Assembly (NCBI GenBank): GCA_002320595.1
Contig: DCKB01000010.1
Span: 3,305-67,304, forward strand
Source of the DNA: Christensenella sp. UBA1685
GTDB taxonomy: Bacteria > Bacillota > Clostridia > Christensenellales > CAG-138
Length of the DNA: 64,000 bases
Reading direction: 5' to 3'
Part shown: piece by piece, positions 28,162 through 36,565 of the stretch
Position numbering within the stretch: the first letter of the stretch is position 1
How the letters are laid out: each line of letters starts with the position of its first letter
Made by a program: the position numbers and the translations under genes
The notes under the pieces: generated by a model
Told to the model about the DNA's origin: nothing
The model's input: the letters and a program-made list of their open reading frames with translations, nothing else
The model's database searches: none

Positions 28162-29955
28162 TTATTTTTCCACATCCGTGCAGATGTGCAGCTCCCGAAG
28201 CTGCTTTTCTTCCACTACGTTGGGCGCATCGGTCATCAGGCAGGAGGCCGTCTGCACCTTTGGGAACGCGATGACGTCGCGGATGTTCGTGGTGCCCGTC
28301 ATGAGCATCACAAGCCGGTCAAGGCCATAGGCAAGGCCGCCGTGCGGCGGAGTGCCATACTTGAATGCGTCGATGAAATACCCAAAACGTTCGCGTGCCT
28401 GCTCCGGCGTGAAACCGATCGTCTCGAACATTTTCTCCTGCAATTCTGAAGAGTGGATTCGGATGGAGCCGCCGCCCGCCTCGTAGCCGTTGATGACCAT
28501 GTCGTAAGCCTTGGCGCGCGCCTTGCCCGGATCGGTATCAAGCAATGCAATGTCTTCATCCTTGGGGCTCGTGAACGGGTGGTGGCACGCAACATAGCGG
28601 TTTTCTTCCTCATCCCATTCAAGCAGCGGGAAATCCGTTACCCAGAGCACATCGAACTTCGTCTGATCAATGAGGTCAAGCCGCTTGGCAATCTCAACGC
28701 GCAGCGCGCCGAGCGAAGCGTACACCACCTCGTTTTTCGCATCCGCAACGAAGAACAGAATGTCCCCCTGCTCCGCGCCCGCGGCTTTCTGAACATCCGC
28801 AATCTGCGCCTCGGTTAGGAACTTTGCGAACGAGCACTGGAGCCCCTCGGGTTTCAAGCTCATCCACGCCATGCCCTTTGCGCGGTAGATCTTCACAAAC
28901 TCCGCAAGCTCGTCGATCTTCTTGCGCGGGAATTTCTCCACGCCGCCCTTGACGCAGATGCAGCGCACGCTGCCGCCGCCCTCAATGGCGGAATTGAACA
29001 CCCCGAAGCCGGAACCGCGCACGATGTCCGTCACATCCACAAGCTCCAGACCAAAGCGGGTATCCGGCTTATCGGAGCCAAAGCGGTCCATGGCCTCCTG
29101 CCAGGGCAGGCGGCGCAGCGGAAGCGGCAGGTCAATGCCCTTGACCTCCTTCAAAAGCCGCGCAATAAAGCCCTCGTTCACAGCGAGCACATCCTCTTCA
29201 TCCACAAAGGACATTTCAAGGTCAATCTGCGTAAATTCCGGCTGGCGGTCTGCGCGCAGGTCCTCATCGCGGAAGCAGCGGGCGAGTTGGAAATAGCGGT
29301 CATACCCTGCGATCATCAGGAGCTGCTTGAACTGCTGCGGGCTCTGCGGAAGCGCATAAAACTCGCCGGGATGCACGCGGCTCGGCACAAGGTAGTCCCT
29401 TGCGCCCTCCGGCGTGGAACGGCCGAGCATCGGCGTTTCGATTTCAAGGAAGCCCTGTTCATCGAAATAGCTGCGGGTGATCTGCGCGATGCGGTGGCGC
29501 ATCATGAGAATCTCCTGCATGCGCGGCCTGCGCAGGTCGAGATAGCGGTACTTCAGGCGGAGATCCTCTTTCGTGTTCACGTTATCGTCAATGTAAAACG
29601 GCGGGGTTTCCGCGCTTGAGAGAATTTTCAGCTCGCTTGCGATGACTTCATATTCGCCCGTTTTCATCTCCTTGTTGACCATCTCCGGCGTGCGGCGCGC
29701 AAGCGTTCCCTTTACCGCGATTACATATTCGCTGCGGATGGTTTCCGCAAGTTCAAACACCTCTTTGGGCAGGCCGGATTCGTTGAACACAACCTGCATC
29801 AGGCCGCTGCGATCCCTGAGGCCGATGAAGATGAGCGCGCCCAGATTGCGCCATGTTCCCGCCCAACCCATGAGCGTTACTTCCTGCCCGATCTGTTCCG
29901 CCGTAAGCTCGCCCACGCGGTGCGAGCGTTTCCAGCCCTGCAATAATTCAGCCAT
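28162..29955 (-). CDS. aspS: Aspartyl-tRNA synthetase
   Basis: 597 aa; GWAGTWRNLGALIFIGLRDRSG...FRDEDLRADRQPEFTQID...GGGSIRIH...PPHGGLAYGLDR. Confidence 0.97.
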   Translation of the reverse strand: MAELLQGWKRSHRVGELTAEQIGQEVTLMGWAGTWRNLGALIFIGLRDRSGLMQVVFNESGLPKEVFELAETIRSEYVIAVKGTLARRTPEMVNKEMKTGEYEVIASELKILSSAETPPFYIDDNVNTKEDLRLKYRYLDLRRPRMQEILMMRHRIAQITRSYFDEQGFLEIETPMLGRSTPEGARDYLVPSRVHPGEFYALPQSPQQFKQLLMIAGYDRYFQLARCFRDEDLRADRQPEFTQIDLEMSFVDEEDVLAVNEGFIARLLKEVKGIDLPLPLRRLPWQEAMDRFGSDKPDTRFGLELVDVTDIVRGSGFGVFNSAIEGGGSVRCICVKGGVEKFPRKKIDELAEFVKIYRAKGMAWMSLKPEGLQCSFAKFLTEAQIADVQKAAGAEQGDILFFVADAKNEVVYASLGALRVEIAKRLDLIDQTKFDVLWVTDFPLLEWDEEENRYVACHHPFTSPKDEDIALLDTDPGKARAKAYDMVINGYEAGGGSIRIHSSELQEKMFETIGFTPEQARERFGYFIDAFKYGTPPHGGLAYGLDRLVMLMTGTTNIRDVIAFPKVQTASCLMTDAPNVVEEKQLRELHICTDVEK

Positions 29956-29970
29956 TGTTCTTCTCCTTCT

Positions 29971-31236
29971 TTATCGTTCCAAGATTGCTTTTACGGTTTC
30001 AACGAATTCCGCAAGCGGTGTTGCCGCCTCTTCGCCCGTCTCCATGTTTTTGAGCTTGATGACGCCGGTTTTCACCTCATCATCCCCGAGGATCGCCACA
30101 AAGCGCGCACCAAGCTTGTCGGCATATTTGAACTGTGCCTTAAAGCTGCGGCCAACATGGTCAAATTCGGCCTTCACGCCCGCATCGCGCAGCGCCTTCA
30201 CAAGGCGCATGCCCTCGCCGCGCGCCGCTTCGCCCATAGCCGCGAGATACACGCCCACGGGTTCGGGCGCAGGAATCTCCCGGAAGCTTTCCGCCACAAG
30301 CAGGAGGCGTTCCATGCCCAAGCCAAACCCAACGCCCGGCATCTTCGGGCCGCCGAGCTGCTCCAGCAGGCAATCATACCGCCCGCCGCCGCAGACCGTC
30401 CCCTTGTATTGCCCCTCGGTTGAAATGATTTCAAAAACGGTCTTTGTATAATAATCCAGGCCCCGCACGATCATCGGGTCGATCATATATGCGATGCCCA
30501 TCGCTGCGAGCGATGCCTTCAGTTCCTCGAAATGCGCCTTGCAGTCATCGCACAGGCAGTCGATCATCTTCGGCGCGCCGGCTGCAATCCTCTTGCACGT
30601 TTCCTCCTTGCAGTCAAGGATGCGCAGAGGGTTCTTTTCAAAGCGCGTCCGGCAAGTCTCGCACAAACCGTCGTAATTCGCCTGAAGATACTCCCTGAGC
30701 TTTGCATTGTATGCCGGGCGGCACTCCGGGCAGCCGATGCTGTTCACGTTGACGGAAAGCCCCCCGATGCCGAGCGTGCGGAACAGGTCGAGCGCAAGCG
30801 CGATGCACTCCGCATCCACGCTTGCGCGCGGCGCGCCATAAACCTCCACGCCAAACTGGTGATGCTCGCGCAGGCGGCCTGCCTGCGGCTTTTCATAGCG
30901 GAACACGGGGCAGTAAAGATAATACAGCTTCGTGGGCTGCGCCTCGTTGAAGAGCTTGGACTCCATAAACATGCGCGCAACGCCTGCCGTCCCTTCCGGC
31001 TTGAGGGTCACGGAACGGTCGCCCTTATCGGTAAAGGTGTACATCTCCTTTTGTACCACGTCCGTGGTGTCGCCCACGCTGCGCAGGAAAAGCTCCGTGT
31101 GCTCAAGCACGGGCGTGCGCGTTTCATGAAAGCCATAGGTCGCGCAGAGTTTGCGGATCAAGCCTTCGATATACTGCCATTTGTAGCTTTCCTTCGGGGT
31201 CACATCCCGCATCCCCTTGGGTATTTGATATTGCAT
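29971..31236 (-). CDS. hisS: Histidyl-tRNA synthetase
   Basis: ORF 29971..31395, trimmed to ATG 31236 (GAGGAG upstream; MQYQIPKGMRDV). RYEKPQAGRLREHHQFGVE...GGGRYD. Confidence 0.96.
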   Translation of the reverse strand: MQYQIPKGMRDVTPKESYKWQYIEGLIRKLCATYGFHETRTPVLEHTELFLRSVGDTTDVVQKEMYTFTDKGDRSVTLKPEGTAGVARMFMESKLFNEAQPTKLYYLYCPVFRYEKPQAGRLREHHQFGVEVYGAPRASVDAECIALALDLFRTLGIGGLSVNVNSIGCPECRPAYNAKLREYLQANYDGLCETCRTRFEKNPLRILDCKEETCKRIAAGAPKMIDCLCDDCKAHFEELKASLAAMGIAYMIDPMIVRGLDYYTKTVFEIISTEGQYKGTVCGGGRYDCLLEQLGGPKMPGVGFGLGMERLLLVAESFREIPAPEPVGVYLAAMGEAARGEGMRLVKALRDAGVKAEFDHVGRSFKAQFKYADKLGARFVAILGDDEVKTGVIKLKNMETGEEAATPLAEFVETVKAILER

Positions 31237-31244
31237 CGTCCTTC

Positions 31245-31497
31245 TCCTCACATAAAAATAAGGGTTTTCCGTTCCTTCTTTCAAAGGGACGGGAAACCCG
31301 CGGTGCCACCCTTGCTTGCGCACATCGCCTGCGCGCCGCTCATGCCCCGTTAACGCCGGGAAATACGACCGCGCCTTATCAGTGCGGCAGCTCACGGGCG
31401 TCCTTCACGCGGTGCGCCGCGGGGCGGCTTTCAGCCACGGCCTGCCCTCTCTTTGCGCTTGCATGCGCGCTACTCTTCCGATCACAGCCTTTTTGCC
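31245..31497 (-). promoter_or_regulatory. Complete T-box riboswitch leader of hisS-aspS
   Basis: Minus-strand RNA contains GATCGGAAGAGTA, AGAGAG, GGCTGAAAG, and a specifier region with CAC and GAC. It also has the T-box sequence AAGGGTGGCACCGCGGG (31297..31313) and the terminator GGGTTTCCCGTCCC...GGAACGGAAAACCC followed by TTATTTTTAT (31252..31299). Confidence 0.85.
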
Positions 31498-31531
31498 ATT
31501 ATAGCCGTGCAGAGAATAATTGTCAACAGGC
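31324..31531 (-). repeat. Direct repeat copy 1 (208 bp: promoter plus 5' part of the T-box leader)
   Basis: Base-by-base match to 33778..33985, with 2 mismatches (31418, 31485). Offset is 2454 bp with no indels. Confidence 0.95.
31498..31526 (-). promoter_or_regulatory. hisS-aspS promoter (copy 1, functional position)
   Basis: Minus strand TTGACA (31521..31526), 17 bp, TATAAT (31498..31503): perfect consensus. Confidence 0.8.
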
Positions 31532-31632
31532 GTTCTAGCCGCTCATCTGCAAGCCTGTAGGAAAGCCCTCCGCTCCTATGCCCTGCCCGCATCGGCGTTC
31601 GTATGAATATACAATATATTTACTCGAAGCCG

Positions 31633-31661
31633 TTGACAGGTGGTGGATGGAATACTAAAAT
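31633..31661 (+). promoter_or_regulatory. Promoter of the cassette operon
   Basis: TTGACA (31633..31638), 17 bp, TAAAAT (31656..31661). AGGAGG lies before ATG 31716. Confidence 0.6.
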
Positions 31662-31715
31662 GAATTTAAATAAATATATTACAAATCTTACTGCAATGCT
31701 CAAAAGGAGGTAAAA

Positions 31716-33023
31716 ATGAAGATCAAGAGATATTTCGCTTGTCTGGTTTTGATTATCGCTGTCCTGTCGACAGGATTTTCAAATGCTTCTTCATCCTTTA
31801 AATGTTCCAATGTTGGTCATCTGCAATTCTACACGTCTCCATCGGTCGAAGCGCCTTCAGGGATTATTTCCGCTGTCAACGAATTCATTGAATACCGATA
31901 TGAGTATTTAGCGTTTAGAACACAACCTTCGAGTTACAGGAGTATCGTTTCAAACAAAAGTATAGTTGCACGGAATTTTTTTGAAATTGAGAATGCACTG
32001 TTATATGCCGAAATGGCTTCTCAAAAAACAAACGGCATTGAATGCTCCTATGCTGACTACAATTTGGAAGTCAATTATTCAAGCATAGAAACCAACGCCT
32101 CAAAAACATCTGCCGAGGTCATTGTATCCGTAACTTGTAATTTTCGCTATAGAATTTCCCCAGAAATCAACTCAGCAAAAGGTAATATATACATTCTGAA
32201 TTTAGAAAAAAACGCTGATGTATGGGAAATTACGAGCAGAAAGAACACGACTTTCTTTGATTCAATAGTTTGGGAGAGTAATGAAGAGCGCACACTTTCC
32301 AAAGCAAATATAATCAAGGAAAGATGTATTGCTAATGCTAAGGCCTATGCCGATAACACGATGGGATATGACGGTTCAGTCATAGAACAAGTTTCAGATA
32401 CATTTAGTACAGAAGCTTCGACCAGTTCCAATTATACTTATTTTTCCAGTTCGAAACGTTCTGCTGCTGCAGCTACTGCCAGAAACTACGTTGCAGCTAG
32501 CGGAGTTAGTGGAACTACATACACATATACTTATCCTGAATCACAATATGCGCAAAATGGCTCTGATTGTACCAACTTTGTTTCATTCTGCTTAAACTAT
32601 GGCGGAGGTATCCCTCAAGATCGTGTTGGTACCTATCAATGGTATCCGGGTAGATCTTGGTGGACAAACGTTGACAAGTTTTACAGTTACCTTATGGGAA
32701 CAAAATCAGAAACCGAAAAAGGGATTGTCGCATCTGTTCATTACAGTGGTACCACTTACCCGAGTGCAACAGTGCTACGTTCTCTTCCACTCGCAAGTAT
32801 CGTTCAGTTTAGTTCTAAACCCTCTAGTGAAAATGATTGGACGCACTCAGCCATCGTAACTTATAGTTTAGAATCCGGAACCACTTATGTATGTATGCAT
32901 AGTGCATATGGTTGGAATTCGCAATGCTTGTTAAGTGAATTCTACTATGATGAATATGTATATAACACAAATTCAAATGGAACTGGGATTCGCTTAATTG
33001 ATATTGAGGGATATTATGCCTAA
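31716..33023 (+). CDS. Secreted protein with C-terminal putative Cys-His amidase domain (PF12671-like)
   Basis: Signal MKIKRYFACLVLIIAVLSTGFSNA. C-terminal GSDCTNFVSFCLNYGGGIP...WYPGRSWW...WTHSAIVTY...VCMHSAYGW. Low GC. Confidence 0.7.
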   Translation: MKIKRYFACLVLIIAVLSTGFSNASSSFKCSNVGHLQFYTSPSVEAPSGIISAVNEFIEYRYEYLAFRTQPSSYRSIVSNKSIVARNFFEIENALLYAEMASQKTNGIECSYADYNLEVNYSSIETNASKTSAEVIVSVTCNFRYRISPEINSAKGNIYILNLEKNADVWEITSRKNTTFFDSIVWESNEERTLSKANIIKERCIANAKAYADNTMGYDGSVIEQVSDTFSTEASTSSNYTYFSSSKRSAAAATARNYVAASGVSGTTYTYTYPESQYAQNGSDCTNFVSFCLNYGGGIPQDRVGTYQWYPGRSWWTNVDKFYSYLMGTKSETEKGIVASVHYSGTTYPSATVLRSLPLASIVQFSSKPSSENDWTHSAIVTYSLESGTTYVCMHSAYGWNSQCLLSEFYYDEYVYNTNSNGTGIRLIDIEGYYA

Positions 33024-33699
33024 TCTGCCGCACCGCAAACGATTGCTCCTTCTGCCCCTCGTATTGCTGCTCTGCGCTTGCGCAGTTTCTCCGAAGAATA
33101 CCCCGTTTGCGGAGCTTTCCTCCCGCGTGGAAGCGGTGCTTCATACGCCCGCAGACGAGCGCAAAGCATATTTCGCATTGCATTATGGCGACCTGCTCCG
33201 CGCCGGCCAGATCGCTTTCCCGGAGGAGTATGCCACCCTTTCCGGAGCGGAAAAAGCAGAAGAATGGGCGGCGAGCCTTGATACTGCTTCCGACTATGAA
33301 GCAACCCTGCTGGCGATCAACCAAGGGGACGCAACGCGGCTGAAGGAAATGGAAGAGAACAGCATCCCTGCCATGTTTTCCAACCATGGCATTACGCTCG
33401 CAGAGCTTGCCTGCTTGGAGGAAGGCGGCACGGCATGGCTATCCTTCGGCCTTTCTGCGGGGGATGCCAGCCTCCCTTCGGAAGCTCCTTCTCTCAAGGT
33501 AAATGGAATACCGCTCCCGTGCGAGCGGTTGCTGCTGGGGCTTGGAACACCCGATTTGAACCCTGCGGAGCTTGGCATTTTCAGAGCAGAATGGCCAAAA
33601 GGGAATCCATCGGGAACAAGCCGCATCGAATTGCGCATCGGAGAGGCCGTATTTGCGTTCGAGTGCGATTGGGACGCACAGCTTTGCAAGTTATCATAA
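33016..33699 (+). CDS. Hypothetical lipoprotein, translationally coupled to the amidase gene
   Basis: ORF 32998..33699, trimmed to ATG 33016 (GAGGG upstream). This ATG overlaps the upstream stop by 8 nt. MPNLPHRKRLLLLPLVLLLCAC signal/lipobox. GC returns to ~55%. Confidence 0.6.
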   Translation: MPNLPHRKRLLLLPLVLLLCACAVSPKNTPFAELSSRVEAVLHTPADERKAYFALHYGDLLRAGQIAFPEEYATLSGAEKAEEWAASLDTASDYEATLLAINQGDATRLKEMEENSIPAMFSNHGITLAELACLEEGGTAWLSFGLSAGDASLPSEAPSLKVNGIPLPCERLLLGLGTPDLNPAELGIFRAEWPKGNPSGTSRIELRIGEAVFAFECDWDAQLCKLS

Positions 33700-33704
33700 A
33701 TGTG

Positions 33705-33766
33705 TGGCGCGCCGCCTCGGCGCGCCATAAAAACCCTCTCATGCCCCGCCATGGGGCTTTTCGTTT
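33705..33766 (+). terminator. Two hairpins ending the cassette operon
   Basis: TGGCGCGCC-GCCTC-GGCGCGCCA (33705..33727), then GCCCC-GCCAT-GGGGC followed by TTTTCGTTT (33743..33766). Confidence 0.6.
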
Positions 33767-33777
33767 ATGTGTTGTGT

Positions 33778-33985
33778 ATCGCCTGCGCGCCGCTCATGCC
33801 CCGTTAACGCCGGGAAATACGACCGCGCCTTATCAGTGCGGCAGCTCACGGGCGTCCTTCACGCGGTGCGCTGCGGGGCGGCTTTCAGCCACGGCCTGCC
33901 CTCTCTTTGCGCTTGCATGCGCGCTACTCTTCCGATCATAGCCTTTTTGCCATTATAGCCGTGCAGAGAATAATTGTCAACAGGC
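33778..33985 (-). repeat. Direct repeat copy 2: orphan promoter plus truncated T-box leader
   Basis: Matches 31324..31531 at 206/208 positions. Lacks the T-box sequence and terminator, which lie outside the repeat. Confidence 0.95.
33952..33980 (-). promoter_or_regulatory. Orphan copy of the hisS promoter, directed into the cassette (antisense)
   Basis: Minus strand TTGACA (33975..33980, overlapping the TGA of the GAF gene), 17 bp, TATAAT (33952..33957). Confidence 0.7.
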
Positions 33986-34432
33986 AAAACACACCTTCTC
34001 GATCTCCCGGGCAACCGCTTCAAGCCCTTCCCTGTCCGCCGCGGTGAAACGCGCAAAATGCGGGCTGTCAATGTCAAGCACGGCAACAACATCCCCCGCC
34101 TTGTTATGAAGCGGAATCACAATCTCGGAATTGGAAGCGCTGTCGCACGCGATGTGCCCGGAAAATTCGTGCACATCCTCAACGCAAACCGTTTCGTTTG
34201 AAGAAAACGCCGTTCCGCACACGCCCGCACCGAACGGGATATGCATGCACGCGGGCTTCCCCTGAAACGGCCCAAGCAGCAGTTCCCCGTTTTTTGCAAC
34301 GTAAAACCCAACCCAGTTGATGCCGCCGAGCGACGCATTCAAAAGCGCGGAAGCGTTGGCAAGGCATGCCACAGTGTCGGTTTCGTCCTCCAGCAAAGCG
34401 CGCATCTGCCGCGCGAGCAAAGCATAGTCCAT
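33977..34432 (-). CDS. GAF-domain protein (free methionine-R-sulfoxide reductase/YebR-like)
   Basis: ORF trimmed to ATG 34432 (MDYALLARQMRALLEDETD). NWVGFY...LLLGPFQGKPACMHIPFGAGVCG...HIACDSASNSEIVIPL pattern. Confidence 0.8.
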   Translation of the reverse strand: MDYALLARQMRALLEDETDTVACLANASALLNASLGGINWVGFYVAKNGELLLGPFQGKPACMHIPFGAGVCGTAFSSNETVCVEDVHEFSGHIACDSASNSEIVIPLHNKAGDVVAVLDIDSPHFARFTAADREGLEAVAREIEKVCFAC

Positions 34433-34454
34433 CGCGTTTTCCTTCTTTCGCTTT

Positions 34455-35921
34455 TCAGCGTATTTCATACAGTCTGCGCTTTTCTTCCGCAAGCCGGTCG
34501 ATCTTTGCGATATATGTCGCTATGTCTTTCGGGTTCGGTATGCGCTCCACACGGCGCTCGGCATCGTAAATGCACTTTGTCATGGCGCCCGCGCCGTGGG
34601 CCATGATGGAGGTCGTGTCCTCCATCATGTCGATGTTATAAACACATTCCTTTCCGGGCAGCGCATAGCCGACGTTCTCCAGATTGCCGCGCATGTATTT
34701 CTGCCGGTACATATAATACGGCCGCATGCCGAGCGCATGCGCAGCCTCCGCGCCGGTTGTGACCATCGCTTCCGCGACGTCCGCCTCCGGCAGCGGATAT
34801 TCGCCCAGCCTTTCCACAAGGCGGGAAGACCGCTTCAATGCAAGCGTATGCACGGTGAGGTTGTCCGGCGCAAGGCGCACGATCTCATCCAGCGTATGGC
34901 GCATGTCGTCCACCGTTTCCCCCGGAAGCCCTGCAATCACATCCATGTTGATCGAAGCAAAGCCCGCCTCCCGCGCCATATGGAAGGCCGTCTTGATTTC
35001 CTCCGGCGTATGGCTGCGGCCAATGAGGCGCAGCGTGCGCTCATTCATGCTCTGCGGATTGATGGAAACGCGCCCCGCGCCTGCCGCACGCAAAACGTTG
35101 AGCTTTTCCTGCGTGATGGTGTCGGGCCGCCCGGCTTCCACGGTCAATTCAACGCCGAAGCCGCCATAAGCGGAAAGCGCGAAATCGAGCAGCCGCCGGA
35201 GCTCCTCCGCAGTGAGCACCGTAGGCGTTCCGCCGCCGAGATACATGCTGCGCACGGTATGCCCAGTGTCCCTTACGATCTCTGCGCCATGCGCAATGTC
35301 CCGCTCCAAGGCCGCAAGGTAGGATGCCATGTCCGTCTTTTCCGTGCGCACGGCGGAGGCAAAGGAACAGTACAGGCAGCGGGAAGCGCAAAACGGAATG
35401 CCGATGTAGACATCCACATCCTCCTTCCGCTGCCCGTGCAGGATGGGCATTTGCACGCCGACGATCTCCGCTGCAAGTGAAAGCTTCTCCTCGGAAACGT
35501 CAAACTCCTCCCGCATCATGCGCATAGCCTCCACTGCGCCTTCGCGTGCAATCAGTTCGCGCAGCAGGCGCGTAGGGCGGATGCCCGTGAGCGAGCCCCA
35601 CGGCAGTTCCAGCCCGGTTGCCGCGCGCATCGCCCGAAACGCCGCAATCTTCACAGCGCGCTTGCGGCAGCGCTTTTCCGCGAGCGCATCGCCTGTCACG
35701 GCCGGGCGTTCATATGTGGAAACAGCCCTTTGCCCGCAGAGGCGCACCTCTGCGCGGGCGCGCCAAAGGCCGCCGTCCTCTTCCAAAACAACGGATACCG
35801 CATCCGCGCAGGAAGCGCCGCAGGCTTCCGCAGGGACGATCTCCTCCATGGCAAGAAACAGCCTGAGCTCGTCCGCAATGTCCGCAAAAAACGCGGGCTG
35901 GTTCGTGTAAAGGCTTACCAT
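34455..35921 (-). CDS. hemZ: HemZ-type oxygen-independent coproporphyrinogen-III-oxidase-like radical SAM protein
   Basis: IGIPFCASRCLYCSF radical-SAM motif in the middle of a ~490-aa protein, then YLGGGTP. ATG 35921 overlaps the upstream stop (ATGGTAA). Confidence 0.75.
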   Translation of the reverse strand: MVSLYTNQPAFFADIADELRLFLAMEEIVPAEACGASCADAVSVVLEEDGGLWRARAEVRLCGQRAVSTYERPAVTGDALAEKRCRKRAVKIAAFRAMRAATGLELPWGSLTGIRPTRLLRELIAREGAVEAMRMMREEFDVSEEKLSLAAEIVGVQMPILHGQRKEDVDVYIGIPFCASRCLYCSFASAVRTEKTDMASYLAALERDIAHGAEIVRDTGHTVRSMYLGGGTPTVLTAEELRRLLDFALSAYGGFGVELTVEAGRPDTITQEKLNVLRAAGAGRVSINPQSMNERTLRLIGRSHTPEEIKTAFHMAREAGFASINMDVIAGLPGETVDDMRHTLDEIVRLAPDNLTVHTLALKRSSRLVERLGEYPLPEADVAEAMVTTGAEAAHALGMRPYYMYRQKYMRGNLENVGYALPGKECVYNIDMMEDTTSIMAHGAGAMTKCIYDAERRVERIPNPKDIATYIAKIDRLAEEKRRLYEIR

Positions 35922-36565
35922 CGCCCTGCGCCCCAATCGCGCATCACAGGGTTGTGCTGCCGCTCGAATTCAAGCGTGGTCTTGCGCATATGCCCCGGGT
36001 ATACATCGTAATCCCCCGCAAGCGGGAACAGCGTGTATGCGATGGATTCATACAGCTCCCGTTCGCTTCCGCCCGCAAGGTCGCTGCGGCCCACGCTCAG
36101 GCGAAACAGCGTGTCGCCCGCAAAGATCATGCGCTCCCGCTCCAACAGATAGCAAACGGAGCCCTTGGAATGCCCGGGCGTATGCAGCACTTTCACCGCG
36201 AAGCCCGCGGCGTCAAGCGTTTCCCCGCCTTGCAGCAGCACGTCTGCCCGGCAGGGGGGAACCTCCATCCCCGCAAACACGGAAAGGCTTGCGCGCTTGC
36301 TGTAAAGCGCCTCCGCATCCTCCGCATGGATGCAGACCCTTGCGCCGAATTCCTTTTGCAGCGCCGCAACGGCAAGGATATGGTCAAAATGCCCATGGGT
36401 GAGCAGGATGTGCGTAGGCTTCACGCCACGATCCGCCATCGTGTCCCGCACGAGCGCAGCATCCGAAGGATCCACGATGAAGCATTCGCCCGCGCGCGCG
36501 CCAAGCATGATGTAAGTGTTGACCTCAAGCGGCCCTGTAAGCAAGGTAATGGGTTGCATGTTCAA
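35915..36565 (-). CDS. MBL-fold metallo-hydrolase
   Basis: LLTHGHFDH...HTPGHSKGS...GD motifs; 216 aa. Confidence 0.85.

What the first reader, a model, noticed from the sequence alone, without database searches (positions are those of the whole stretch)
31324..33985. 208-bp direct repeat duplicating the hisS-aspS promoter and T-box 5' half brackets a 2.25-kb inserted cassette
31324..31531 and 33778..33985 are collinear, in the same orientation, and offset by exactly 2454 bp. In my base-by-base comparison they differ at only 2 of 208 positions (31418 C vs 33872 T; 31485 C vs 33939 T). The repeat holds the consensus promoter (TTGACA-17-TATAAT, minus strand) and the Stem I/specifier part of the T-box leader. 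The right copy abuts the upstream gene as an ancestral locus would: its -35 box overlaps the TGA of the GAF gene at 33977..33979. The left copy continues into the T-box sequence, terminator and hisS. Between them, 31532..33777 carries two plus-strand genes. The first is strongly AT-shifted (two sampled 60-nt lines at 38-40% GC, against 55-70% in sampled flanking lines). I see no integrase, transposase or terminal inverted repeats. A long duplicated target flanking an insert fits two mechanisms. One is single-crossover (Campbell-type) integration of a circular molecule carrying ~208 bp of homology. The other is a duplication-insertion event. Homologous recombination between the repeats could also excise the cassette precisely and restore a single leader, making it a potentially reversible accessory module inside an essential aaRS control region.
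Basis: partly seen in the sequence, partly recalled or inferred. Interest (0 to 1): 0.8.

Follow-up and report, generated by a model that had tools for sequence, protein, structure and literature searches.

The report
Duplicated hisS leader brackets old gene cassette
The 208-base repeat is real, but it is the scar left where two alternative versions of one chromosomal locus were joined through their shared hisS control region, around an old two-gene cell-wall amidase/lipoprotein cassette; it is not a fresh or mobile insertion.

Summary
Observation confirmed: 31324-31531 and 33778-33985 are a 208-nt direct repeat with 2 mismatches and a 2454-nt offset. Each copy holds the last 9 nt of the GAF gene, a consensus promoter and the T-box 5' part. 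Only the left (proximal) copy is a complete T-box. At least 17 independent assemblies carry both copies, so it is not an assembly artefact.

Relatives show an exact empty site (L022, L024, L025, L029), so the cassette is an addition. It is old, though. The lipoprotein gene has the same synonymous divergence to a sister species (dS 0.65) as the flanking housekeeping genes (0.69-0.82). No recombinase, terminal repeats, or phage or plasmid relatives were found.

A third allele class exists (L023 group, variant V, the X3 strain): the cassette sits in place of GAF with a single leader. The window looks like the "GAF-leader" and "cassette-leader" alleles laid end to end. The likeliest route is one homologous exchange plus one illegitimate join (Campbell or HFIR type).

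The distal copy is an orphan. It is decaying in most strains and was homogenised with the proximal copy in the window's clade. No within-species empty-site allele or excision product was seen.

Verdict: an ordinary kind of event in an unusual place. Interest is moderate to low.

The parts
31324..31531 (-). Proximal repeat copy (P): last 9 nt of the GAF reading frame (GCCTGTTGA), the consensus promoter, and T-box Stem I / Stem II / 5' half of stem III. This is the working leader of hisS-aspS.
33778..33985 (-). Distal repeat copy (D): same content, contiguous with the GAF gene. It is an orphan promoter plus a truncated T-box that points antisense into the cassette.
31282..31494 (-). Complete T-box leader (RF00230, 98.4 bits). 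The specifier is read as GAC (Asp) and the T-box bulge as UGGC.
   Evidence: GAC is conserved in the L022, L023 and L115 leaders while its neighbouring bases vary. The tRNA assignment is an inference from T-box rules.
33794..33948 (-). Truncated T-box in the distal copy (55.8 bits, below gathering score). It has no stem III 3' half, antiterminator or terminator.
31498..31526 (-). Promoter of hisS-aspS (TTGACA-17-TATAAT).
33952..33980 (-). Orphan copy of the same promoter. Its -35 box overlaps the GAF stop codon. In 10 of 16 strains compared the -35 box is TTGAAA.
31532..33777 (+). Cassette: a self-contained transcription unit (promoter, two overlapping genes, terminator) antisense to the surrounding operons.
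31633..31661 (+). Promoter-like site of the cassette (TTGACA-17-TAAAAT). It lies in a spacer that is only 77% identical among conspecific strains.
31716..33023 (+). Secreted 435-aa YjcM-like protein: signal peptide, NTF2-like N-terminal domain, C-terminal Amidase_6 (PF12671) papain-fold amidase. AT-rich (GC3 33%).
   Evidence: PMC10318531
33016..33699 (+). 227-aa lipoprotein (lipobox L-x-A-C, with invariant A21 and C22). No known family. Its start overlaps the amidase stop by 8 nt. GC 57%. Under purifying selection.
33743..33766 (+). Intrinsic terminator of the cassette (GCCCCGCCATGGGGC followed by a T-run), 11 nt from the right junction.
33977..34432 (-). 151-aa GAF-domain gene. It is the ancestral upstream neighbour of the hisS leader.
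29971..31236 (-). hisS
28162..29955 (-). aspS
34445..36400 (-). Radical-SAM plus MBL-fold gene tract next to GAF. It is 93.7% identical to variant V, against 98.1% further out. It is a distinct haplotype that travels with GAF and the distal copy.

Best explanation
The repeat is the seam of a homology-dependent joining of two pre-existing versions of this locus.

Relatives carry two simpler forms. Form E is radical-SAM gene, GAF, promoter/T-box, hisS-aspS. Form C is radical-SAM gene, a few relic bases of GAF, the antisense lipoprotein(+amidase) cassette, the last 9 nt of GAF, promoter/T-box, hisS-aspS. The window is E up to leader nucleotide 208 followed by C from the outer end of the cassette onward. 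The leader segment that both forms share is therefore present twice.

The most likely route (inferred) is one homologous exchange plus one illegitimate join at a short similarity: leader 'GCGCGCAGGCGAT' against GAF nt 19-30 'GCGCGGCAGAT'. This could have been a circularised fragment integrating by a single crossover in the leader (Campbell type), or a linear fragment by homology-facilitated illegitimate recombination (HFIR).

How it works now:
- The proximal copy is the functional promoter and Asp-specific T-box of hisS-aspS (shown by the Rfam match; its function is inferred).
- The distal copy supplies the last two codons and the stop of GAF. Otherwise it is an orphan: a promoter plus Stem I-II with no antiterminator or terminator, firing antisense into the cassette and probably stopped in part by the cassette's hairpin (inferred).
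- In most strains the distal copy is decaying (-35 TTGAAA; GA-motif AUGA changed to AAGA). In the window's clade it has been overwritten by exchange with the proximal copy. That is why only 2 mismatches remain.

The cassette is an old resident, not a mobile element. It encodes a secreted YjcM-like Amidase_6 cell-wall amidase and a translationally coupled lipoprotein that may be its partner or inhibitor (speculative).
For: - Three allele classes exist. E: L022, L024, L025, L029, L114. C: the L023/L103-L106/L111/L112 clade and variant V (L109, L113, L121, L122), plus a contig in run X3. E+C: the window and all of L001-L021, L107, L108, L110.
- E aligns gap-free to both outer flanks of the repeat. 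C shares the cassette's left junction, including the GAF tail.
- The cassette is as old as the split from the L023 clade: lipoprotein dS 0.65 against hisS 0.70, rSAM 0.82, MBL 0.69. GAF is likewise vertical (dS 0.62 to L022).
- Yet D and P are 93-100% identical to each other and only 85-88% identical to orthologous leaders. So D is younger than the cassette's residence here, or has been converted.
- In strains L015-17, P plus the T-box 3' part plus the hisS 5' part are 99-100% identical to C-type variant V. D differs from P at 13 sites spread over its whole length (6.3%). That is the same divergence as the rSAM-MBL tract that adjoins GAF and D (93.7% to V, against 98.1% beyond). This is the pattern expected if D and P came from two haplotypes.
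- In the laboratory, single crossover of circular molecules yields inserts flanked by 109-950-bp duplications of the homologous segment (PMC3240628). HFIR is defined.
- Gene conversion: D differs at 6 sites between strains whose GAF (99.6%) and cassette end (100%) are nearly identical, and the window-clade D equals the P haplotype of L004.
Against: - No E-type genome closer than about 83% to the window species was found, so the postulated close E-type partner is unsampled.
- The strains are recombination mosaics. For example, the C-type X3 contig shows none of the V-type leader substitutions among the differences listed (5 further differences were not shown), and strain L014 has a V-like MBL gene. 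Haplotype arguments are therefore soft.
- The junction microhomology works equally well for a deletion in the opposite direction.
- The identical C-type junction in V and L023 could be shared ancestry or a recurrent deletion.
- A circular intermediate cannot be tested.
- There is no transcript evidence for either promoter.
Confidence: 0.5

Rival explanations
1. A single duplicative insertion (Campbell-type or duplication-insertion) of a foreign cassette into an E-type ancestor created both copies at once, before the split from the L023 clade. C-type genomes are later deletions of GAF plus D between the similar motifs in the GAF 5' end and the D end. L022 either branched earlier or lost the cassette by recombination between D and P. 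The copies stay alike through repeated gene conversion.
For: - GAF-D and P-hisS are each collinear with the empty site.
- C-type genomes keep a relic of the rSAM-GAF spacer and the GAF start.
- The motifs GCGCGGCAGAT and GCGCGCAGGCGAT offer a substrate for a recurrent deletion that ends exactly at the D/cassette junction.
- Gene conversion between the copies is independently supported.
- The window species, L022 and L023 form a near-trichotomy, so a single gain is possible.
Against: - It needs conversion to have kept D-P divergence at or below 6.7% over a period in which orthologous leaders diverged 12-15%.
- V is sister to the window species (94-98%), yet it carries the same C-type junction as the distant L023 clade. 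That requires either a long-lived polymorphism or an independent identical deletion.
- It does not predict that D's divergence from P in L015-17 equals that of the adjoining rSAM-MBL tract.
- It leaves the origin of the first duplication unexplained.
Confidence: 0.3
2. The distal copy is a functional regulatory module and not a scar. Its consensus promoter makes an antisense RNA that represses the amidase-lipoprotein operon, or a Stem I 'decoy' that binds tRNA-Asp and tunes the hisS-aspS T-box. Selection and gene conversion maintain it. This is compatible with either origin model.
For: - D has a perfect 12/12 promoter in the window's clade.
- D is retained in every window-type strain.
- D is not evolving faster than the constrained P copy between clades (6 against 9-10 differences).
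- A hairpin followed by U5 downstream of the truncated leader could release a short RNA.
Against: - In 10 of 16 strains D carries TTGACA to TTGAAA in the -35 box and AUGA to AAGA in the conserved GA motif. Both positions are invariant in all functional leaders.
- The C-type lineages (the L023 clade, V, and apparently the X3 strain) manage without D.
- The D-derived RNA folds no better than shuffled sequence (z = -0.41).
- No RNA data are available.
Confidence: 0.1
3. The cassette is the remnant of a site-specific integrative element or transposon, and the repeats are its attL/attR or target duplication.
For: Direct repeats flank an insert that differs in base composition.
Against: - The 2246 nt contain no recombinase or transposase.
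- The terminal inverted-repeat score is at the level of shuffled controls.
- There are no phage, plasmid, viral-contig or PHROG relatives beyond a weak peptidase hit.
- Only half of the cassette is AT-rich.
- A repeat of 208 nt is far longer than a transposon target duplication.
- The cassette is never seen at another locus.
Confidence: 0.04
4. Assembly artefact: the real state is an empty site plus a separate 2454-bp circle, or a chimera.
For: With identical repeats longer than the reads, a de Bruijn graph cannot tell the two states apart. Logan contigs do break at the repeat.
Against: - At least 17 independent assemblies from different pipelines give the same order.
- In many strains the copies differ at 7-14 sites, and each variant set is linked to its own flanks.
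- Short contigs L108 and X27 span the right junction, and L113 and X28 contigs span the left junction.
- Related species carry derivative layouts that only make sense if the cassette is chromosomal.
Confidence: 0.02

Closest known systems
Campbell-type (single-crossover) insertion-duplication of a circular molecule
   Same: The insert is bracketed by direct repeats that equal the shared homologous segment, and an empty site with one copy exists in relatives. The repeat length (208 nt) falls within the 109-950 bp seen experimentally in E. coli conjugation (PMC3240628).
   Different: This is a natural, fixed chromosomal example with no vector or plasmid. The 'circle' would have been a fragment of a sister allele. 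The homology is a promoter plus riboswitch 5' half, so one product is an orphan regulatory element.
Homology-facilitated illegitimate recombination (HFIR)
   Same: One end is joined by homology and the other at a short similarity. Foreign or non-allelic DNA is trapped next to a conserved anchor (definitions in PMC3240628 and PMC5361080).
   Different: Classical HFIR usually deletes recipient DNA. Here the net result is an insertion with a duplicated anchor. The microhomology is imperfect, and the direction (join or deletion) cannot be read from it.
Effector-immunity module displacement leaving orphan genes and 3' relics (V. cholerae T6SS arrays, Rhs/CDI loci)
   Same: Alternative modules compete for one chromosomal slot between conserved genes. 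Relics of displaced genes remain (the 67-aa amidase relic; the GAF 5' and 3' relics). The hydrolase is lost repeatedly while the downstream small gene is usually kept (PMC5361080).
   Different: There is no secretion-system context. An immunity function of the lipoprotein is untested, and the lipoprotein gene is itself frameshifted in L103-105.
T-box leader RF00230, including naturally tandem T-boxes
   Same: The proximal copy is a canonical transcription-attenuation T-box. Both copies carry Stem I with the same specifier.
   Different: Tandem T-boxes are adjacent, complete and co-transcribed. Here the second copy is 2.4 kb away, lacks the decision-making 3' half, and is separated from the first by antisense genes.
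B. subtilis YjcM-YjcN (PDB 9a4p) and Tae3-type Amidase_6 effectors
   Same: The domain layout of the amidase model is the same (Foldseek E 1.2e-8 to YjcM), and an adjacent partner gene is present. PF12671 is placed among the NlpC/P60/CHAP-like peptidoglycan amidases (PMC10318531).
   Different: Sequence identity is only 15%. The lipoprotein shows no detectable similarity to any known protein or structure. Its model is unusable (pLDDT 49.5).

Membership tests
T-box leader (Rfam RF00230) | Score at or above the gathering threshold over the full model (Stem I with specifier, Stem II/IIA-B, stem III, T-box sequence, antiterminator/terminator) | tested here: met
   Proximal copy plus downstream sequence, 31282-31494(-): 98.4 bits against a threshold of 93, model positions 1-219.
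T-box leader (Rfam RF00230) | The same test applied to the distal copy | tested here: not met
   33794-33948(-): 55.8 bits, below 93. 67 model positions (stem III through terminator) are absent. It is a fragment, not a riboswitch.
Campbell-type insertion-duplication | The insert is flanked by two direct copies of a segment that is single-copy at the empty site | tested here: met
   208-nt copies. There is a single copy in L022, L024, L025 and L029, collinear with both outer flanks.
Campbell-type insertion-duplication | A donor exists in which the insert is already linked to the homologous segment | tested here: met
   C-type alleles have the cassette directly upstream of the same leader, with the same left junction.
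Campbell-type insertion-duplication | A circular intermediate, or reversibility by recombination between the repeats | not testable with these tools
   No circle-junction or empty-site reads could be examined. The raw-read run X24 had no coverage, and Logan contigs break at the repeat.
Homology-facilitated illegitimate recombination | An illegitimate junction at a microhomology next to a homologous anchor | tested here: inconclusive
   The D end GCGCGCAGGCGAT resembles GAF nt 19-30 GCGCGGCAGAT, and the relic in V/L023 reads GGCGCAGAT / GGGTGCA. This is compatible with either a join or a deletion.
Integrative element / transposon | A recombinase or transposase gene | tested here: not met
   The cassette holds only two genes, an Amidase_6 protein and a lipoprotein.
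Integrative element / transposon | Terminal inverted repeats or a short target duplication | tested here: not met
   The best terminal inverted-repeat score is 14, against a shuffled mean of 12.3 and maximum of 19.
Integrative element / transposon | Occurrence at other loci or on phages or plasmids | tested here: not met
   The cassette proteins occur only at this locus. No phage, plasmid or viral match was found.
Amidase_6 (PF12671) papain-fold cell-wall amidase | Pfam match above the cut-off, with conserved Cys and His | tested here: met
   63.7 bits against a cut-off of 23.2, residues 247-403. D284, C285 and H377 are invariant in 13 homologues. The fold matches YjcM. Enzymatic activity was not tested.
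Secreted hydrolase / immunity-lipoprotein pair | Export signals on both proteins and co-transcription | tested here: met
   A signal peptide and a lipobox can be read from the sequences. The genes overlap by 8 nt and share one promoter and one terminator.
Secreted hydrolase / immunity-lipoprotein pair | The partner neutralises the hydrolase | not testable with these tools
   Only indirect evidence exists. The amidase is lost three times independently while the lipoprotein shows dN/dS 0.23. However, the lipoprotein is frameshifted in L103-105, and the nearest amidase homologue context examined has no such lipoprotein called downstream (a sigma-70-type gene follows; L102).

The most novel reading that the evidence does not exclude
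The orphan distal module is kept because it works. A strong constitutive promoter transcribes a terminator-less T-box Stem I/II RNA that runs antisense into the amidase-lipoprotein operon. This would silence a potentially self-harmful cell-wall amidase, and possibly also act as a tRNA-Asp-binding decoy that shifts the set-point of the hisS-aspS riboswitch. Gene conversion from the essential proximal copy would act as its repair mechanism.
Probability: 0.08. Interest if true: 0.7.

Novelty: new member of a known kind. Interest (0 to 1): 0.35.

Why it matters
This is a clean natural example of how bacteria can add genes between essential operons without any mobile-element machinery. The neighbours survive because the shared control region is duplicated. 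The by-product is a spare promoter and half a riboswitch that then either decays or is homogenised by gene conversion.

The case also shows that near-identity of flanking repeats cannot be used to date an insertion. Here the cassette predates a species split, yet its repeats differ at 2 of 208 sites.

For annotation, it warns that a T-box 5' half next to a consensus promoter may be a scar and not a regulator.

The locus (radical-SAM gene to hisS) appears to be a repeatedly used slot for small secreted-protein genes in an uncultured gut Clostridia lineage. That may interest people studying strain-level variation in gut bacteria.

Tried and rejected
1. Assembly chimera, or circle plus empty site. 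Rejected on many independent assemblies and on the linkage of copy-specific variants.
2. Mobile-element origin. No recombinase, no terminal repeats, no phage/plasmid/IMG-VR/PHROG/PADLOC relatives.
3. A leader-derived relic at the cassette's hisS-proximal end (a shared 9-mer, ATGAGCGGC). The local alignment scores no better than shuffles, with 279 of 500 shuffles at least as good. Dropped.
4. Structure of the lipoprotein. The AF2 model has pLDDT 49.5, so no fold search was run. No PDB, Pfam, NCBIfam, PHROG or PADLOC hits.
5. Transcript evidence. The runs labelled RNA-Seq are held only as contigs with no strand and low, DNA-like coverage. They are not informative about either promoter.
6. Read-level test for empty-site alleles or circles. 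The only raw-read run (X24) had no reads on the region, and contigs break at the repeat.
7. Search for a close empty-site relative. The single genome-collection and metagenome-collection scans and 12 exact-protein look-ups found E-type layouts only at about 83% identity or less.
8. Reading the direction of the event (join or deletion) from the junction sequence. It is ambiguous, because the same microhomology serves both.
9. Literature search for a described T-box leader duplication flanking an insert. Nothing matching was found.

Full report
**1.

A repeat search of 29000-36500 finds one outstanding direct repeat: 31324-31531 and 33778-33985. It is 208 nt, 99% identical, with spacing 2454. 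Everything else in the region is 42 nt or shorter and no more than 90% identical.

Alignment shows two mismatches and sharp loss of similarity on both sides. Read on the minus strand, each copy begins with GCCTGTTGA, the last two codons and the stop of the 151-aa GAF-domain gene. It continues through TTGACA-17-TATAAT (12 of 12 matches) and into the T-box.

Rfam finds a complete T-box only at 31282-31494(-), at 98.4 bits against a threshold of 93. The distal copy scores 55.8 bits and stops after the Stem II region; the repeat ends in the loop of stem III.

The specifier loop reads GAA-G-GAC-G and the T-box bulge reads UGGC. By the usual T-box rules this indicates tRNA-Asp. The GAC is conserved in related leaders while its neighbours vary. 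The tRNA assignment is an inference.

**2. What lies between the copies.**

31532-33777 is a self-contained plus-strand unit, antisense to everything around it. It contains, in order:
- a promoter-like site at 31633-31661;
- a 435-aa gene at 31716-33023;
- a 227-aa gene at 33016-33699, whose ATG overlaps the first gene's stop by 8 nt;
- an intrinsic terminator at 33743-33766, 11 nt from the junction.

The first protein has a signal peptide and a C-terminal Amidase_6 domain (PF12671, 63.7 bits). D284, C285 and H377 are invariant across 13 homologues. Its AlphaFold model (pLDDT 69) best matches B. subtilis YjcM as modelled in complex with its neighbour YjcN (PDB 9a4p, E 1.2e-8). The N-terminal half resembles NTF2-like folds. 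PF12671 is classed with the NlpC/P60/CHAP peptidoglycan amidases (PMC10318531).

The second protein has a lipobox (invariant A21-C22) and no detectable relatives outside this lineage.

The amidase gene and its promoter region are 31-42% GC (GC3 33%). The lipoprotein gene, the terminator and all flanks are 57-59% GC (GC3 60-73%). The compositional switch falls exactly at the gene overlap.

**3. Not an artefact, not sporadic.**

Exact-protein look-ups for the amidase, lipoprotein, GAF and HisS returned contigs from at least 17 different assemblies (MEGAHIT, SPAdes and others). All have the same gene order, and every contig that spans both sites has both repeat copies with the same 208-nt boundaries.

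In several strains the copies differ at 7-14 positions, and each version is linked to its own flanks. The alternative graph traversal (empty site plus circle) is therefore excluded. No conspecific contig with an empty site was seen.

**4. Relatives give three allele classes.**

The one genome-collection scan (HisS), the metagenome scan and further look-ups place the window in an uncultured gut Clostridia lineage. A six-gene alignment gives:
- window-L022 85.6%, window-L023 84.9%, L022-L023 86.1%, a near-trichotomy;
- L024/L025 about 78%;
- L029 67%.

The allele classes are as follows.

- **E-type** (radical-SAM gene, GAF, single leader, hisS): L022, L024, L025, L029, L114. L022 aligns without a gap to window 34434-33778 and to 31532-31100. 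The overlap between those two alignments is the duplicated block, so L022 is an exact empty site.
- **C-type** (cassette in place of GAF, one leader):
  - The L023/L103-L106/L111/L112 clade is 95-99% identical within itself and about 83% to the window. It lacks window 33772-34461 (GAF plus the distal copy) and 31788-32911 (the amidase body). What remains of the amidase is a 67-aa in-frame relic joining the signal peptide to the C-terminal tail.
  - Variant V (L109, L113, L121, L122) is 94-98% identical to the window. It lacks GAF and the distal copy and has the amidase ORF cleanly removed between the two ribosome-binding sites.
  - A contig in run X3 is 98.6% identical to the window, has an intact amidase, and carries a V-length (629-nt) unlike segment where GAF and the distal copy would be.
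- **E+C type**: the window.

C-type genomes keep the cassette's left junction, including the orphaned GAF tail (CCTGTTGA) in front of the -35 box. They also keep a relic of the rSAM-GAF spacer and GAF start at the other end. That junction is homologous between V and L023.

**5. The cassette is old.**

Nei-Gojobori estimates between the window and L023:

| Gene | dS |
|---|---|
| lipoprotein | 0.645 (dN/dS 0.23) |
| hisS | 0.70 |
| radical-SAM gene | 0.82 |
| MBL gene | 0.69 |

GAF between the window and L022 gives dS 0.62. Both the cassette and GAF have therefore been inherited alongside their neighbours since these species separated.

The amidase has only 41% or lower identity to anything outside the lineage. 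It has no match in phage, plasmid or viral collections. The nearest homologue context examined is a 42%-GC genome. The cassette ends have no inverted or direct repeats beyond chance. So this is neither a recent insertion nor a recognisable mobile element.

**6. The two copies are too alike for that age.**

D and P are 93-100% identical within a genome but only 85-88% identical to the orthologous leaders of L022, L023 or L114.

Two distal haplotypes exist. The first, in the window's clade, is identical to a proximal haplotype (L004). The second, in L011-L019 and L110, has six private changes. Yet GAF (99.6%) and the cassette end (100%) on either side are essentially identical between these strains. 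A divergence island confined to the repeat, with one state equal to the other copy, is the signature of intragenomic gene conversion (inferred). This explains the 2-of-208 figure in the window.

The older distal haplotype carries TTGACA to TTGAAA in the -35 box and AUGA to AAGA in the conserved GA motif. Both positions are invariant in all working leaders. That argues for relaxed constraint on the orphan copy.

**7. How the layout arose.**

In L015-17, the proximal copy, the T-box 3' part and the 5' part of hisS are 99-100% identical to C-type variant V. The distal copy differs from the proximal one at 13 sites along its whole length, or 6.3%.

The radical-SAM/MBL tract adjoining GAF and the distal copy (34445-36400) is 93.7% identical to V. 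Sequence beyond 36450 is 98.1%, and the hisS side is 96-98%. The distal copy therefore behaves as part of a left-hand haplotype, and the proximal copy as part of a right-hand, C-type haplotype.

I read the window layout as an E-type left half (through leader nt 208) joined to a C-type right half (from the cassette's outer end). That takes one homologous exchange and one illegitimate join. The join lies where the leader (GCGCGCAGGCGAT) resembles the GAF 5' region (GCGCGGCAGAT) that survives as the relic in C-type alleles.

Equivalently, it is HFIR with a linear fragment. In E. coli, single crossovers of circular molecules produced inserts flanked by 109-950-bp duplications of the homologous segment (PMC3240628).

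I give this 0.5. The main rival (0.3) is an original duplicative insertion into an E-type ancestor, followed by microhomology deletions that gave the C-type, with long-term concerted evolution of the copies.

The data cannot settle the choice for these reasons:
- the same microhomology serves a join and a deletion;
- no close E-type genome was sampled;
- the strains are recombination mosaics. The C-type X3 contig shows none of the V-type leader substitutions among the differences listed, and L014 has a V-like MBL gene.

**8. How it works now (mostly inferred).**

The proximal copy is the promoter and Asp-responsive attenuator of hisS-aspS. The first 9 nt of the distal copy complete the GAF reading frame. 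The rest of the distal copy is a promoter plus Stem I-II with no decision-making 3' half, so any transcript would be constitutive and antisense to the cassette. The cassette's terminator hairpin with a downstream U5 could stop part of that transcript.

There is no strand-resolved RNA evidence.

The amidase is dispensable. It carries a nonsense codon in L108, an in-frame deletion in the L023 clade, and is removed cleanly in V. The lipoprotein is usually kept under purifying selection but is frameshifted in L103-105. A hydrolase/partner or hydrolase/immunity relationship, like YjcM-YjcN or Tae3-Tai3, is a hypothesis only.

**9. Reversibility.**

Recombination between 208-nt repeats could excise the cassette precisely, and L022 could in principle be such a revertant. 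However, nothing observed requires it. The outgroups have the empty site ancestrally, and no within-species empty site was found. The losses that are documented remove GAF plus the distal copy, or the amidase, and not the cassette.

**10. Verdict.**

The feature is a natural insertion-duplication scar in an aminoacyl-tRNA synthetase leader, with an orphan promoter and half-riboswitch subject to decay and gene conversion. It is a new member of a known kind. Interest is 0.35.

The most novel reading not excluded is a functional antisense or tRNA-decoy role for the distal copy. I give it a probability of about 0.08.

Noticed in passing
L022:7611-8243; also L114:941-1559 and L109:1055-1671: A second insertion of the same style. 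A 553-593-bp segment carrying an antisense 134-aa small lipoprotein gene sits between the radical-SAM gene and GAF. In L022 it is bracketed by a 40-nt direct repeat (88%) that duplicates the 3' end and stop codon of the radical-SAM gene. It is present in L022, L114 and V but absent from the window, the L023 clade and L024/L025. Taken together with the cassette, all four presence/absence combinations occur, which implies recurrent precise loss or inter-lineage recombination.
   Followed up: partly
L115:5474-6794 (also L116-L120): In another related species, a homologue (73%) of that small lipoprotein gene is inserted between GAF and the hisS leader. Homology to the window stops at 31529, within 2 nt of the window cassette's left junction. 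There is no duplication, and the GAF C-terminus is altered (155 aa). The site just upstream of the hisS -35 box has therefore been hit at least twice by different genes.
   Followed up: partly
window 31716-33023; L108:1-1092; L023:8325-8528; L113:1124-1170: The amidase has been inactivated independently three times: a CAA-to-TAA nonsense codon before the catalytic Cys in conspecific strain L108, an in-frame 1124-nt deletion in the L023 clade, and a clean removal between the two ribosome-binding sites in variant V. The lipoprotein gene is itself frameshifted in L103-L105 (protein P0018).
   Followed up: yes
window 31532-31715: The cassette's promoter spacer is only 77% identical, with 9- and 11-nt indels that change the -10 region, between strains that are 98-99.8% identical everywhere else (window against L011, L107, L110). 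It is 96% identical to L015. Two deep haplotypes of the amidase promoter coexist in the species.
   Followed up: partly
window 33015-33023: There is a sharp compositional boundary exactly at the 8-nt overlap of the two cassette genes (GC3 33% against 60%). It is also visible in the relics of the L023 clade, so it has persisted without amelioration since before the species split. Either the amidase half was spliced in front of a native lipoprotein gene long ago, or AT-richness is intrinsic to this amidase family (the homologue in L102 is 37% GC in a 42% GC contig).
   Followed up: partly
window 35945-36245: Inside the MBL-fold hydrolase gene, identity to variant V drops to 87-90%, the lowest in the region. 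Strain L014 is 99.2% V-like there while its neighbours are not. This is local mosaic recombination.
   Followed up: no
window 33677-33854: In a wastewater run labelled RNA-Seq (X27), a 178-nt contig spans the right junction (lipoprotein 3' end, terminator, distal-copy 3' part) at word depth 12.6, against 2.4-3 for amidase fragments. If this is RNA, it could reflect a stable 3' end. It carries no strand information, and part of the contig is repeat sequence.
   Followed up: no
window 33976 and 33938 (distal copy) in L011-L019 and L110 (L012 keeps T at the second position): The commoner distal-copy haplotype has TTGAAA in place of TTGACA in the -35 box, and AAGA in place of AUGA in the conserved GA (K-turn) motif. 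Both positions are invariant in every functional leader examined.
   Followed up: yes
window 31282-31494: The hisS-aspS operon is controlled by a single T-box whose specifier reads GAC (Asp) with a UGGC bulge. It reads as Asp and not His (CAC/CAU), so HisRS expression would be tied to tRNA-Asp charging in this lineage.
   Followed up: partly
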